DNA of 8,003 nucleotides from Candidatus Hodarchaeota archaeon (GTDB taxonomy: Archaea > Asgardarchaeota > Heimdallarchaeia > Hodarchaeales > Hodarchaeaceae): NCBI GenBank assembly GCA_016839785.1, contig JAEOTQ010000090.1, forward strand, positions 1 to 8,003. Direction: 5' to 3'. The translations under genes and the position numbers were made by a program. Below are positions 2,303 to 8,003 of this stretch, one piece after another. Under the pieces are notes generated by a model, which did not search any database, was not told where the DNA came from, and saw only the letters and a program-made list of their open reading frames with translations. How positions within the stretch are numbered: the first letter of the stretch is position 1; each line of letters begins with the position of its first letter.

Positions 2303-2379
2303 GGGCCGGTGGTCTAGCTCGGTATGACGCTAGTCTCACACACTAGAAGTCGGTAGTTCAAATCTGCCTCGGCCCACCA
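2303..2379 (+). tRNA. tRNA-Val, anticodon CAC, genomically encoded CCA
   Basis: Hand-folded cloverleaf. Acceptor stem GGGCCGG (2303-2309) pairs with TCGGCCC (2369-2375). D arm is GTCT/TGAC. Anticodon stem CTAGT (2330-2334) pairs with ACTAG (2342-2346), with loop CTCACAC (anticodon CAC at 2337-2339). Variable loop is AAGTC. T arm GGTAG (2352-2356) pairs with CTGCC (2364-2368), with loop TTCAAAT. Discriminator is A2376 and CCA is 2377-2379. The gene is a GC-rich island in AT-rich surroundings. Confidence 0.93.
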
Positions 2380-6691: not shown

Positions 6692-7603
6692 TTAAATTTT
6701 TGTGATTTCCTGCGCATTTACGAGTCCAATAAACTCATGTACCTCATCGTAAGAACAATGATCGGAATATGGGAAATAATGGACATCTAATCGTTTGGAA
6801 ATTAATTCAATTGCCCAACCTGTAGGGGAGATCCGTAAGGAATTTATTAAACGTGCTTCCGTTTGTTGGTCCAATCCAGAAAGATTTTCAACTCTCCTTC
6901 TACTCTCAACACAGATTCCTGACTCTGGATCATCGGTAAAAATATCCCAATCTCCACCAATCTCTTTATAGATTTTAACTTTTTTATCTGGAGCGAATAT
7001 TTTCACTTTCAGCGCATCACTAATTGTTTTCAATAGTTTTTCCTTCCCTATTTGATAGGCAGCAATCCAGATCTCTTTCTGTGGATAATTTCCATCAGCT
7101 AACATAAGAGAAAGGATTTCTGAGATTAAATCCTTTCGTGAAGGAAAAGTGTATTTAGGATTTTTTCCATAGGTATAATCTAACCATAAATGATCTGCAT
7201 CACGAATGAGTTCTATTTCATCCAGAATTGGCTGACCCAGACGGAAATCGCCTGTGTAAACTTCTTTTCTATTTTCTGGTGTCTCAGTTACAAACATTAA
7301 ACTTCCTAAACAATGATTTGCATCAATAGCATGAATTACAAAGTCATCGAAATCTAAAGATTGATTCTTATTAATTACTAAACATTTCTCTTTAGGAATT
7401 CGATGAAGCACTTTTATAGCTGCGGCTGTCTCTTTTGAGCAAACTATTGTTGAATCTGGTGAAGAGAGAATAGATTTTATTCCAGTAGTGTGATCACTGT
7501 GAGCGTGAGATAGAAAATAGTAATCTGATGATGTGGAGTGTTTTTTTCTTTTCCGAAGTGGAAATTCATCAAAATAACTATTGGATAACTTTGAAAAAAC
7601 CAT
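6692..7603 (-). CDS. SNM1/PSO2/Artemis-type (DRMBL) beta-CASP DNA nuclease
   Basis: 303-aa ORF with ATG at 7603-7601. Motifs: FLSHAHSDH (HAHSDH = 7490-7507), DANHC(LGS) (7310-7324), YTGDFR, WLDYTY (beta-CASP motif A), AAYQIGKEK, SPTGW (motif B) and YSDHCSYDE (about 6752-6766, motif C). All of these mirror the signature strings of eukaryotic SNM1A/Apollo/Artemis: HFHSDH, ANHCPG, TGDFR, LDTTY, YSIGKEK, PTGW, YSEHSS. Confidence 0.88.
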   Translation of the reverse strand: MVFSKLSNSYFDEFPLRKRKKHSTSSDYYFLSHAHSDHTTGIKSILSSPDSTIVCSKETAAAIKVLHRIPKEKCLVINKNQSLDFDDFVIHAIDANHCLGSLMFVTETPENRKEVYTGDFRLGQPILDEIELIRDADHLWLDYTYGKNPKYTFPSRKDLISEILSLMLADGNYPQKEIWIAAYQIGKEKLLKTISDALKVKIFAPDKKVKIYKEIGGDWDIFTDDPESGICVESRRRVENLSGLDQQTEARLINSLRISPTGWAIELISKRLDVHYFPYSDHCSYDEVHEFIGLVNAQEITKI

Positions 7604-7796: not shown

Positions 7797-7814
7797 GAGA
7801 AAGAAAGAAAAAAG
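7797..7814 (-). terminator. pyrimidine/oligo-T tract (CUUUUUUCUUUCUUUCUC on the - strand) downstream of the 5S locus
   Basis: The + strand purine tract gagaaagaaagaaaaaag reads as a T-rich run, including T6 at 7808-7813, on the - strand. It lies about 50 nt past the end of the 5S-derived sequence. Confidence 0.45.
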
Positions 7815-7857
7815 TAATAGAAAGGAGTTTGTATCTCATGGCGCATTTTCACCAGGG

Positions 7858-7867
7858 GATATTGTTT
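7858..7867 (-). other. trailer arm of a putative BHB-like processing motif (AAA bulge plus CAAUAUC)
   Basis: It lies immediately 3' of the 5S 5'-part. A7867-A7865 are unpaired. CAAUAUC (7864-7858) is perfectly complementary to GAUAUUG (7998-7992) in the leader. Confidence 0.55.
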
Positions 7868-7985
7868 CCGGGTTCGGAATGAGACCGGGTGTGACTCAGG
7901 CCCTTTGGCCGAAGAACCTTCAGCTTTCCGATTTTCCCGTAGGCGCGAGCACAACAGTACAGATCAGAACGGAGCCTGACTTAAC
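7866..7985 (-). rRNA. 5S rRNA, circularly permuted gene order (3' two-thirds first, then a capped helix I, then the 5' third)
   Basis: The - strand contains every 5S element, but in rotated order.
- GUUAAG plus the helix II 3' strand: 7985-7972.
- Helix V: UUCUGAU (7969-7963) pairs with AUCGGAA (7932-7926).
- Loop E and helix IV, with a CUCG loop at 7949-7946.
- Helix I as a closed hairpin: GCUGAAG-GUU-CUUCGGC (7924-7908).
- Helix II 5' strand GGGCCUGA (7903-7896) pairs with 7979-7972.
- Helix III and loop C: CACACCCGGUCUCAUUCCGAACCCGGAA (7893-7866).
The total is 120 nt, forming a GC-rich island. Confidence 0.75.
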
Positions 7986-7998
7986 TTTCGGCAATATC
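7986..7998 (-). other. leader arm of a putative BHB-like processing motif (GAUAUUG plus CCG plus AAA bulge)
   Basis: It lies immediately 5' of the GUUAAG that begins the 5S 3'-part. GAUAUUG (7998-7992) pairs with the trailer. CCG (7991-7989) can pair with CGG (7870-7868). AAA (7988-7986) is unpaired. Confidence 0.55.
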
Positions 7999-8003
7999 TC
8001 ACA

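What the first reader, a model, noticed from the sequence alone, without database searches (positions are those of the whole stretch)
7851..8003. Leader/trailer complementarity with two AAA bulges flanking the permuted 5S: a relaxed bulge-helix-bulge (BHB) splicing/circularisation motif
The 7 nt just outside each end of the permuted unit are perfect reverse complements. Leader GAUAUUG (7998-7992) pairs with trailer CAAUAUC (7864-7858).

Moving inward, leader CCG (7991-7989) can pair with CGG (7870-7868) of the 5S body, plus an A7988.C7871 apposition. This leaves AAA (7867-7865) bulged on one strand and AAA/AA (7988-7986) on the other. A short inner helix follows: G7985-C7872, U7984-A7873, U7983-A7874.

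This is the helix-bulge-helix-bulge-helix geometry recognised by the archaeal tRNA-splicing endonuclease. That enzyme acts at introns, at 16S/23S processing stems, and at split or permuted tRNAs.

Cuts inside the two A bulges, followed by ligation, would recreate CCCGGAA(A)GUUAAG, which is the canonical helix III sequence. The product would be a covalently closed 120-121 nt 5S.

The central helix has only 3 Watson-Crick pairs, so the motif is relaxed rather than strict. The outer helix may continue beyond the window edge at 8003.
Basis: inference. Interest (0 to 1): 0.85.

Follow-up and report, generated by a model that had tools for sequence, protein, structure and literature searches.

The report
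BHB processing stem around permuted 5S
In an archaeon of the group closest to eukaryotes, the 5S ribosomal RNA gene is written back half first, and it is flanked by a conserved, covarying fold of the kind the tRNA-splicing enzyme cuts, so cutting and rejoining would restore a normal 5S, probably as a closed circle; this also explains why no 5S gene could be found in these genomes.

Summary
Window 7985-7866 (minus strand) is a 120-nt circularly permuted 5S rRNA gene in a Candidatus Hodarchaeales (Asgard) MAG, with helix I capped by a GUU loop.

The 7 nt on either side (7998-7992 and 7864-7858) are perfect complements. In 21 distinct related precursors the five pairs next to the junction are paired in 104 of 105 cells. 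Each varying pair shows 2-5 pair types, and no shuffle or slid control comes close.

The anatomy is the same in all 21:
- **Leader:** [helix]-G-CCGG-AA|G
- **Trailer:** CCGG-AA|N-C-[helix]

This gives a 4-bp central helix, a canonical 3-nt bulge on the trailer side, and a distal helix further out. The window's clade has CCGA (one A.C) where 12 of 21 have four Watson-Crick pairs. Only the leader-side bulge is relaxed.

Cutting after the second bulge nucleotide and ligating gives ...CCCGGAA-GUUAAG..., the universal 5S sequence, as a 120-nt circle.

Published work says Asgard EndA is the broad-specificity (alpha-beta)2 type. It also says no 5S gene could be predicted in closed Heimdallarchaeum genomes.

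Cleavage and ligation are inferred, not shown. The mechanism has a precedent in the Thermoproteus circular SRP RNA. I found no report of it for 5S.

The parts
7992..8000 (-). Leader strand of the proximal (outer) leader-trailer helix: G8000, A7999 (mismatch), GAUAUUG 7998-7992.
   Evidence: Sequence read. The five junction-proximal pairs are paired in 104 of 105 cells across 21 distinct precursors, with 2-5 pair types at each varying pair.
7988..7991 (-). Leader strand of the central BHB helix. It reads CCGA here and CCGG in most relatives, and pairs with CCGG 7871-7868.
   Evidence: Leader counts in 21 distinct sequences are CCGG 12, CCGA 9 and CUGG 1. The block is conserved although the adjacent leader varies freely.
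7986..7987 (-). Leader-side bulge nucleotides 1-2 (AA), which are discarded. The predicted 5' cut lies between 7986 and 7985. The third bulge position is G7985, the first nucleotide of the 5S.
   Evidence: AA in 20 of 21 and AG in 1. The cut position is inferred from the standard BHB rule and not mapped.
7866..7985 (-). Circularly permuted 5S rRNA, 120 nt.

Order of elements:
- GUUAAG
- helix II 3' strand, 7979-7972
- helices V/IV and loop E, 7969-7926
- helix I hairpin, 7924-7908, with a GUU cap at 7917-7915
- loop A
- helix II 5' strand, 7903-7896
- helix III and loop C, 7888-7868
- AA, 7867-7866
   Evidence: Rfam gives two sub-threshold pieces in swapped order. Model R1, built from the ligated-order sequences, hits the window in two pieces and bacterial 5S end-to-end. 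Helices I, II and V covary. The rotated sequence folds into the 5S Y-shape.
7868..7871 (-). Trailer-side strand of the central BHB helix (CCGG). The same four bases are the 3' strand of helix III in the mature fold, so the two pairings are alternatives.
   Evidence: Invariant in 21 of 21. The conformers differ by +1.3 kcal/mol in the window.
7865..7867 (-). Trailer-side 3-nt bulge AAA. The predicted 3' cut lies between 7866 and 7865. A7867 and A7866 stay in the 5S and A7865 is discarded.
   Evidence: Three unpaired nucleotides lie between the central and outer helices in 21 of 21. Positions 1-2 are always AA. Position 3 is A in 19 and U in 2.
7856..7864 (-). Trailer strand of the proximal helix: CAAUAUC 7864-7858, C7857 (mismatch), C7856.
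7832..7844 (-). Trailer strand of a distal leader-trailer helix: GCGC 7844-7841 and GAGAUA 7837-7832. Its leader partner lies beyond the window edge, at L004 about 6912-6921.
   Evidence: A cofold of leader and trailer gives a distal helix in all 19 complete loci. In close relatives it is built from quite different sequences.
7804..7823 (-). T-rich stretch that includes the T6 run 7813-7808. It is the likely archaeal oligo-T terminator of the 5S transcription unit.
   Evidence: Sequence. T runs sit at the same place in relatives. The role is inferred and not tested.

Best explanation
The window ends inside an independent transcription unit of a Hodarchaeales archaeon that encodes a circularly permuted 5S rRNA.

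The proposed pathway:
1. The primary transcript starts downstream of a TATA box about 90 nt upstream of the 5S, outside the window, and ends at a T run.
2. Leader and trailer pair into a processing stem made of a distal helix, an internal loop and a 7-9 bp proximal helix.
3. Directly inside the proximal helix, a leader-borne copy of CCGG (CCGA here) pairs with the CCGG that ends the 5S. This builds the 4-bp central helix of a bulge-helix-bulge motif. A 3-nt bulge (AAA) lies on the trailer strand and an AA(G) bulge lies on the leader strand.
4. The archaeal splicing endonuclease EndA cuts after the second nucleotide of each bulge, between 7986/7985 and between 7866/7865.
5. The RtcB ligase joins the two ends of the excised piece. 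The join ...CCCGGAA-GUUAAG... recreates the universal 5S sequence in the internal loop between helix III and helix II.
6. The released CCGG then refolds into helix III.

Because helix I is closed by a 3-5 nt loop, the product is most likely a covalently closed 120-nt circular 5S rRNA that enters the ribosome as such.

Shown: the permuted gene, the fold, its conservation and its covariation. Inferred: the enzyme, the exact cut sites, the ligation and the circular end state.
For: **Permuted 5S**
- Rfam 5S matches only as two sub-threshold pieces in swapped order.
- Model R1 was built from the ligated-order sequences. It finds bacterial 5S genes end-to-end at 39-51 bits, at Rfam's own coordinates. 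It splits the window into 7917-8003 (model 34-120, 67.8 bits) plus 7846-7916 (34.7 bits), and splits every Asgard locus the same way.
- The rotated sequence folds alone into the 5S Y-shape at -40.9 kcal/mol.

**Processing stem**
- All 17 full genome loci have the same anatomy in the same register. So do the 7 complete metagenome loci.
- For the outer helix, the covariation score is 0.589 against 0.189 for shuffles (0 of 500 reach it) and 0.03-0.20 for slid controls.
- The pairs at columns 5-8 show CG/UA/AU/UG/GC, AU/UA/CG/GC/UG, CG/UA/GC/AU and UA/CG, with 1 unpaired cell in 84. The closing G-C is invariant.
- The leader CCGR-AA block is conserved although neither search pattern constrained it.
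- Trailer bulge position 3 varies (A or U) while positions 1-2 are invariant AA, as expected if the cut falls after position 2.
- A distal helix is present in all 19 complete loci.

**Is it the organism's 5S?**
- An arrangement-neutral internal probe found 8 of 8 permuted and no canonical genes.
- Eight spurious antisense ORFs in the protein database are all in permuted order.
- None of 17 Asgard loci reaches the Rfam 5S threshold.
- Wu et al. 2022 could not predict any 5S gene in closed Heimdallarchaeum genomes (PMC8813620).

**Enzymes and precedents**
- Asgard EndA is (alpha-beta)2 with the L1 loop, which confers broad specificity (PMC5829648).
- EndA, RtcB and circular 16S/23S transcripts are reported in Asgard archaea (PMC12918454).
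- The Thermoproteus permuted SRP RNA is matured exactly this way (PMC4731332).
- Joining the native 5S ends is tolerated by E. coli ribosomes (PMC7283268).
Against: - No RNA data. No read, contig or ORF spanning the ligated junction was found, though those searches had little power for RNA.
- The central helix cannot be tested by covariation, because its trailer strand is also an invariant strand of helix III.
- In the window's clade the fourth central pair is A.C.
- The leader-side bulge is not a clean 3-nt bulge, because G7985 can pair with C7872.
- Folding does not favour the BHB conformer in the window. It is +1.3 kcal/mol relative to the conformer with helix III plus the outer helix. It is the minimum-energy fold in only 2 of 20 precursors.
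- Sister assemblies of this very locus carry indels inside the 5S unit. This is odd for an essential single-copy gene.
- Whole genomes could not be scanned for a second, canonical 5S.
Confidence: 0.72

Rival explanations
1. Linear permuted 5S. The stem is cut at or near the bulges, but the ends are not joined. The ribosome then carries a linear 120-nt 5S whose 5' and 3' ends lie in the internal loop between helices II and III.
For: A nick at this site leaves every helix intact, because helix III stays attached through its 5' strand (structure). Brown-algal mitochondrial 5S is permuted in the final RNA (PMC4267664). No junction-spanning sequence was found.
Against: The ends produced by EndA and held together in a BHB are the normal RtcB substrate. 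Excised archaeal introns, pre-16S, pre-23S and the permuted SRP RNA are all circularised (PMC12918454, PMC4731332). The break lies exactly where joining restores the universal sequence.
Confidence: 0.15
2. Circular intermediate only. The circle is reopened in the helix I cap, as happens with permuted tRNA precursors of Cyanidioschyzon, to give an ordinary linear 5S.
For: Circular pre-16S is relinearised in model archaea (PMC10515664). Permuted tRNA precursors are processed at the joined native ends (cited in PMC4267664).
Against: The cap is only 3-5 nt, has no conserved sequence and includes stable loops such as UUCG. It offers no recognisable processing signal and no spacer to trim.
Confidence: 0.06
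3. The leader-trailer stem is a generic processing helix cut by another nuclease. The leader CCGRAA is then only a leftover of the duplication that created the permutation. Alternatively, the leader copy, not the trailer copy, is the mature helix III strand.
For: In many minimum-energy folds the leader CCGG pairs with the 5' strand of helix III instead. The central helix shows no covariation. Non-EndA endonucleases process 5S precursors in other archaea (PMC10515664).
Against: A neutral leftover would have decayed like the neighbouring leader bases, but it is kept in 21 of 21 with only pairing-compatible or single changes. The trailer copy is invariant while the leader copy varies, so the trailer copy is the mature one. 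The spacing of outer helix, 4 nt and 3-nt bulge is exactly that of a BHB in every sequence.
Confidence: 0.05
4. Decaying or non-functional 5S fragment. The real 5S gene is canonical and lies elsewhere in the genome.
For: Indel variants of this locus occur in sister assemblies. A truncated copy exists in L040. Whole genomes were not scanned.
Against: Compensatory changes keep helices I, II and V and the processing stem intact across divergent lineages. The TATA box and T run are conserved. Arrangement-neutral searches find only permuted genes. No 5S was predictable in closed Heimdallarchaeum genomes (PMC8813620).
Confidence: 0.02

Closest known systems
Permuted, circularised SRP RNA of Thermoproteus tenax and T. 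uzoniensis (Plagens et al. 2015, PMC4731332)
   Same: It is a 'missing' universal non-coding RNA gene that turned out to be circularly permuted. Leader and trailer form a BHB. A heterotetrameric broad-specificity EndA cuts it and RtcB is proposed to close the circle. The circle is the functional form.
   Different: The RNA here is 5S rRNA, a ribosome component, rather than SRP RNA. The lineage is Asgard rather than Thermoproteales. The central BHB helix is built from a leader copy of a palindromic strand (CCGG) that competes with a mature helix. Here nothing has been shown at the RNA level.
Circularly permuted tRNA genes (Cyanidioschyzon merolae; Thermofilum pendens, Chan et al. 2011, PMC3218864)
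   Same: The 3' half is encoded upstream of the 5' half. The native ends are joined by a short linker. A BHB at the outer termini is processed by the splicing machinery through a circular RNA.
   Different: In tRNAs the circle is an intermediate that is reopened at the acceptor ends. Here the 3-5 nt helix I cap has no evident reopening signal.
[quoted passage not shown]
   Same: Leader-trailer helix carrying a BHB, followed by EndA cleavage, RtcB ligation and circular rRNA species.
   Different: Those genes are in normal order, and circularisation joins the native ends. In Pyrococcus the permutation arises at the RNA level. The literature states that 5S is not processed this way (PMC12918454). 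Here the gene itself is permuted and circularisation restores the normal order.
Permuted mitochondrial 5S rRNA of brown algae and other stramenopiles (Valach et al. 2014, PMC4267664)
   Same: A natural 5S whose helix I is replaced or closed by a hairpin, so that the termini lie elsewhere. Standard models miss it.
   Different: It is organellar. Only the alpha domain is rearranged and the termini lie at the alpha/gamma junction. The final RNA stays permuted and linear, with no BHB and no ligation.
Engineered circularly permuted 5S in E. coli (Huang et al. 2020, PMC7283268)
   Same: The native 5S ends are joined, and the ribosome still assembles and works.
   Different: It is artificial. The new ends lie in loop C or D and are tethered to 23S.

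Membership tests
5S rRNA (Rfam RF00001) | Three-helix-arm fold (helices I-V) with conserved helix III/loop C and loop E sequences. | tested here: met
   After rotation the sequence folds into the Y-shape. Helices I, II and V covary. Loop C/helix III matches model positions 27-51 base for base. The rotated-order model cross-detects bacterial 5S end-to-end.
5S rRNA (Rfam RF00001) | Canonical 5'-to-3' order in the gene, and a score above the Rfam gathering threshold of 38 bits. | tested here: not met
   The window gives two pieces in swapped order at 20.8 and 15.8 bits. No hit reaches threshold in the window or in 17 related loci. Control bacterial 5S genes score about 100 bits.
5S rRNA (Rfam RF00001) | Incorporated into the large ribosomal subunit. 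| not testable with these tools
   Needs ribosome purification or cryo-EM.
Archaeal bulge-helix-bulge (BHB) substrate of EndA | Central helix of 4 base pairs. | tested here: inconclusive
   The window has 3 Watson-Crick pairs plus A7988.C7871. Of 21 distinct relatives, 12 have 4 Watson-Crick pairs and 1 has a U.G. There is no covariation, because the trailer strand is invariant.
Archaeal bulge-helix-bulge (BHB) substrate of EndA | 3-nt bulge 3' of the central helix on each strand. At least one is required in relaxed forms (PMC4731332, PMC7714728). | tested here: met
   The trailer strand has exactly 3 unpaired nucleotides between CCGG and the outer helix in 21 of 21. The leader strand has AA plus G7985, which may pair with C7872. 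This gives 2 or 3 nt, so the motif is relaxed on that side.
Archaeal bulge-helix-bulge (BHB) substrate of EndA | Flanking helices (h and h'). | tested here: met
   The outer helix has 5-9 bp in all loci and strong covariation. The inner helix G-C, U-A, U-A is possible in 21 of 21 but invariant, so it is untestable.
Archaeal bulge-helix-bulge (BHB) substrate of EndA | Cleaved by the splicing endonuclease within the bulges. | not testable with these tools
   Only indirect support. The lineage has a broad-specificity (alpha-beta)2 EndA (PMC5829648). The predicted product equals the canonical sequence.
Permuted non-coding RNA genes matured through circularisation | The 3' part is encoded upstream of the 5' part, and the native ends are joined by a short linker. 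| tested here: met
   Helix I is capped by 3-5 nt in all loci.
Permuted non-coding RNA genes matured through circularisation | A circular RNA with the predicted junction exists in cells. | not testable with these tools
   No junction-spanning contig or ORF was found. These searches cover mostly DNA assemblies.

The most novel reading that the evidence does not exclude
The 5S rRNA inside the ribosomes of Hodarchaeales and other Heimdallarchaeia is an endless circle. It is made from a permuted gene that arose once, early in the Asgard branch from which eukaryotes are thought to derive. If so, the ordinary linear 5S gene of eukaryotes either marks a branch point outside the permuted clade, or had to be re-created from the circle, for example by a retro-copy opened at helix I. 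That would make the 5S arrangement a rare-genomic-change marker for eukaryogenesis.
Probability: 0.2. Interest if true: 0.95.

Novelty: new member of a known kind. Interest (0 to 1): 0.85.

Why it matters
5S rRNA is universal, and its gene is assumed to be easy to find. In closed Heimdallarchaeum genomes, however, none could be predicted (PMC8813620). MAG quality standards also count 5S as a required gene.

A permuted gene that standard models score below threshold explains that gap. It also gives a concrete search model for such genes.

It would be the first cellular rRNA gene that is permuted at the DNA level, and the first 5S matured by the tRNA-splicing machinery. Current reviews say that pathway does not act on 5S.

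If the product stays circular, these ribosomes contain an RNA with no ends.

The lineage is the one placed closest to eukaryotes, which have ordinary 5S genes. The distribution of the permutation across Asgard classes is therefore a testable rare-genomic-change character.

Tried and rejected
- **Rfam at gathering threshold:** nothing but a tRNA on the window and on 17 related loci. This shows that annotation pipelines miss the gene.
- **Bacterial hits of the genome scan (27 loci):** 12 were checked. All lie in ordinary bacterial rRNA operons, and 10 of them carry a canonical 5S at about 100 bits, next to 23S wherever the 23S falls inside the locus. The upstream GTACTG is fortuitous. They were rejected as permuted genes and used as positive controls.
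- **Minimum-energy folding of whole precursors:** it does not single out the BHB. Three conformers compete for the CCGG strands within a few kcal/mol, so thermodynamics alone neither supports nor refutes the motif.
- **De novo RNAalifold on the rotated alignment:** it recovered helix III, the 2-bp element spanning the junction, helix V/IV and part of helix II. It missed helix I because MAFFT shifts the ends of the divergent clade. I therefore supplied the structure by hand for the model.
- **Search for a ligated junction:** an arrangement-neutral DNA probe in metagenome contigs and a junction-spanning antisense peptide against 5.8 billion predicted proteins both returned only permuted-order sequences.
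- **Intron-containing tRNAs:** I looked for them in the fetched loci to calibrate the cleavage rule in this lineage. None was present.
- **Literature:** ten full-text searches for a permuted or circular archaeal 5S found no report. The library is incomplete, so absence there is not proof.
- **Alternative considered and rejected:** that the leader copy of CCGGAA is the mature helix III strand. The trailer copy is invariant, whereas the leader copy carries CCGA or CUGG.
Full report
**1. The observation**

On the minus strand the window ends with 5'-UGUGAGAUAUUG CCGA AA GUUAAG...(5S)...ACCCGG AAA CAAUAUC CCCUGG-3'.
- GAUAUUG 7998-7992 pairs with CAAUAUC 7864-7858.
- CCG 7991-7989 pairs with CGG 7870-7868.
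- A7988 faces C7871.
- AAA 7867-7865 lies on one strand and AAA 7988-7986 on the other.
- G7985-C7872, U7984-A7873 and U7983-A7874 are possible.

A 7-bp run anchored at exactly these two junctions has P = 2e-4 in random sequence of local composition. With 36 registers allowed, P = 5e-3.

**2. What lies between the two strands**

Rfam's 5S model matches only as two sub-threshold pieces in swapped order:
- 7866-7890 matches model positions 27-51 at 20.8 bits.
- 7915-8003 is reported as model positions 19-120 at 15.8 bits. Only the part from about position 45 on aligns to 5S sequence.

Read from G7985, the RNA runs in this order:
- GUUAAG
- helix II 3' strand
- helices V/IV with loop E
- helix I as a hairpin (GCUGAAG-GUU-CUUCGGC, 7924-7908)
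- loop A
- helix II 5' strand
- helix III and loop C
- ...CCCGGAA (7866)

Rotated so that it opens in the helix I cap, the 120-nt sequence folds on its own into the canonical 5S Y-shape at -40.9 kcal/mol.

I built covariance model R1 from 15 rotated relatives with that structure.
- It detects ordinary bacterial 5S genes end-to-end at 39-51 bits, at the same coordinates as Rfam.
- It splits the window into 7917-8003 (model 34-120, 67.8 bits) followed by 7846-7916 (34.7 bits).
- It splits every Asgard locus the same way.

This is a genuine circular permutation of 5S, with the break between canonical positions about 50 and 51.

**3. Source and relatives**

The window's proteins are named Candidatus Hodarchaeales archaeon by NCBI. 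Longer contigs carrying the same locus were fetched. Past 8003 they show a further leader and a TATA-like box (TAAATATATAAAG) about 90 nt upstream of the 5S.

A genome-collection scan looked for loop E lying upstream of helix III. It returned 19 Asgard loci, from MAGs labelled Heimdallarchaeota, Hodarchaeota, Hermodarchaeota, Promethearchaeota/Promethearchaeia or unclassified. It also returned 27 bacterial loci. The 12 checked are ordinary rRNA operons.

A second probe, internal to the 5S and therefore blind to the arrangement, found 8 metagenome loci. All 8 are permuted and none is canonical.

**4. Anatomy of the flanks in relatives**

All 17 complete genome loci have the same layout. So do the 7 complete metagenome loci.
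- **Leader:** 5'-[helix]-G-CCGG-AA|G-UUAA...
- **Trailer:** ...GAAC-CCGG-AA|N-C-[helix]-3'

The outer helix always starts immediately 5' of the leader CCGG, and exactly 3 nt after the trailer CCGG.

Its sequence differs between lineages while staying complementary. Examples are GAUAUUG/CAAUAUC, GAGACUCUG/CAGAGUCUC, GAAUCUCUG/CAGAGAUUC, GGGUG/CACCC, UAAACG/CGUUUA and AAAGCG/CGCUUU.

Counts on an alignment of 21 distinct precursors (A3):
- The five junction-proximal pairs are paired in 104 of 105 cells.
- The closing G-C is invariant. The other four pairs have 2, 4, 5 and 5 pair types.
- The covariation score is 0.589, against 0.189 +/- 0.030 for shuffles (0 of 500 reach it) and 0.03-0.20 for versions slid by 1-3 columns.

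The leader CCGR-AA block was not constrained by either search pattern. It is nevertheless kept in all sequences (CCGG 12, CCGA 9, CUGG 1).

Trailer bulge positions 1-2 are invariant AA. Position 3 is A in 19 and U in 2.

A cofold of leader and trailer alone gives the same picture in all 19 complete loci: the central helix, a 3-nt bulge, the proximal helix, an internal loop and a distal helix. The distal helix is built from unrelated sequences even among close relatives of the window.

**5. Relation to the BHB definition**

A BHB is a 4-bp helix flanked by two 3-nt bulges. Relaxed forms keep at least one such bulge (PMC7714728; PMC4731332).
- **Trailer side:** canonical in every sequence.
- **Central helix:** 4 Watson-Crick pairs in most lineages. 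The window's clade has A.C at the fourth position.
- **Leader side:** relaxed. After AA comes G7985, which can pair with C7872, giving a 2-nt bulge followed by a 3-bp inner helix. If G7985 stays unpaired, it faces C7872 in a small internal loop.

From established knowledge of BHB cleavage, the cut falls after the second bulge nucleotide. That rule places tRNA introns at 37/38. Applied here, the cuts fall between 7986/7985 and 7866/7865. The joined product reads ...GAACCCGGAA-GUUAAGUC..., identical to the universal 5S sequence with two As, 120 nt in total. The variable third nucleotide of the trailer bulge fits this cut.

**6. A conformational switch**

The trailer CCGG (7871-7868) is also the 3' strand of helix III in the mature fold. 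CCGG is its own complement, so the leader copy can pair either with it (the BHB) or with the 5' strand of helix III.

Constrained folding of 20 full precursors puts the BHB conformer between 5.7 kcal/mol more stable and 2.2 kcal/mol less stable than the conformer with helix III plus the outer helix. For the window the difference is +1.3. The BHB is the minimum-energy fold in only two precursors. Folding energy is therefore uninformative. Enzyme binding would have to select the BHB conformer, and after excision the strand returns to helix III.

**7. Is this the cell's 5S?**

For:
- Compensatory changes maintain helices I, II and V.
- The TATA box and T run are conserved.
- Arrangement-neutral searches find only permuted genes.
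- No Asgard locus here reaches the Rfam threshold.

Against:
- I could not scan whole genomes.
- Sister assemblies of this locus carry a 98-nt, an 11-nt and a 3-nt indel confined to the 5S unit.

Other Asgard MAGs (Borrarchaeum, Jordarchaeum) are reported with a 5S gene (PMC9723677). The permutation is therefore probably not pan-Asgard.

**8. Mechanism**

- **Shown:** the permuted gene, the conserved covarying processing stem with BHB geometry, and a product sequence that equals canonical 5S.
- **From the literature:** Asgard archaea have the (alpha-beta)2 EndA with the L1 loop that confers broad specificity (PMC5829648). EndA, RtcB and circular 16S/23S transcripts occur in Asgard archaea (PMC12918454). 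The permuted SRP RNA of Thermoproteus is cut at such a leader-trailer BHB by its EndA and is circular in vivo (PMC4731332). Ribosomes tolerate 5S with joined native ends (PMC7283268).
- **Inferred:** EndA cuts here, RtcB closes the circle, and the circle is the mature form, because the helix I cap is only 3-5 nt and has no conserved signal.

**9. Rivals**

1. A linear permuted 5S. This is structurally viable, because a nick at this site leaves all helices attached.
2. A circle reopened at helix I.
3. A non-EndA nuclease, with the leader CCGR as a relic.
4. A pseudogene.

Only RNA-level data separate the first two from the main model. The last two are disfavoured by the conservation pattern.

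**10. Novelty**

The mechanism has direct precedents in permuted tRNAs and the Thermoproteus SRP RNA, so this is a new member of that kind rather than a new kind.

I found no report of a permuted or BHB-processed 5S in any archaeon in ten full-text searches. A 2026 paper still states that circularisation concerns 16S and 23S 'but not 5S rRNAs' (PMC12918454).

The case is notable because the RNA is a universal ribosomal RNA and the lineage is the one placed nearest to eukaryotes. It also resolves a recorded annotation failure.

Noticed in passing
L001 9600-9640, L003 about 9620-9640 and L002 about 9750 (same locus as window 7850-8003 and beyond): Four assemblies of this very locus are identical in the flanks but differ by indels inside the 5S unit. 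L001 lacks 98 nt, covering the leader plus the first 25 nt of the 5S. L003 lacks 11 nt (CGTTCTGATCT) with the same right edge, just before GTACTG. L002 lacks TGG in the trailer. Whether these are real alleles or assembly artefacts is unresolved.
   Followed up: partly
L040 3125-3275 (+): A truncated extra copy lies about 340 nt upstream of the intact permuted 5S. It has the TATA box, the leader with GAGACUCUG-CUGG-AAG and the first 62 nt or so of the 5S (GTATTG instead of GTACTG), then unrelated sequence. It looks like a dead duplicate of the whole unit.
   Followed up: partly
L049 3016-3174 and L026 1-144 (MAG YT1_021): One contig ends and another begins inside the 5S unit, with exactly 127 nt of overlap in a k=127 assembly. 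The 5S unit is therefore a branching node in the assembly graph, meaning two or more copies or strains with different flanks.
   Followed up: no
window 7866-7985, antisense (+ strand); L002 9435-9809; P0001-P0008: One antisense reading frame of the 5S has no stop codon all the way round the circle (SGFGMRPGVTQALWPKNLQLSDFPVGASTTVQIRTEPDLT). Gene callers therefore predict 'hypothetical proteins' of 65-124 aa across the 5S gene in several Hodarchaeales contigs. These are spurious.
   Followed up: yes
window 2303-2379 (+); L042 1553-1627; L050 566-642; L026 5592-5666: tRNA-Val(CAC), without an intron, lies a few kb from the permuted 5S in several relatives, so local synteny is conserved. The window also carries genes for an MBL-fold hydrolase, a MutS domain V protein, an M48 peptidase and an NfeD-like protein.
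   Followed up: no
L002 and L004 leader, about 45-70 nt upstream of the 5S (beyond window 8003); same place in L038, L050, L052, L059 and L049: A conserved leader hairpin (CUGGUUUG-UAAUCUCG-CAAACAG) sits between the presumed transcription start and the distal helix. The other Heimdall-type clade has a different hairpin at the same place. Its role is unknown.
   Followed up: no
L014 5389-5505 and 5510-5623: A Streptomyces contig from the genome scan has two 5S genes in tandem, 4 nt apart. The second scores much lower (58.8 against 107.1 bits). This is unrelated to the finding.
   Followed up: no
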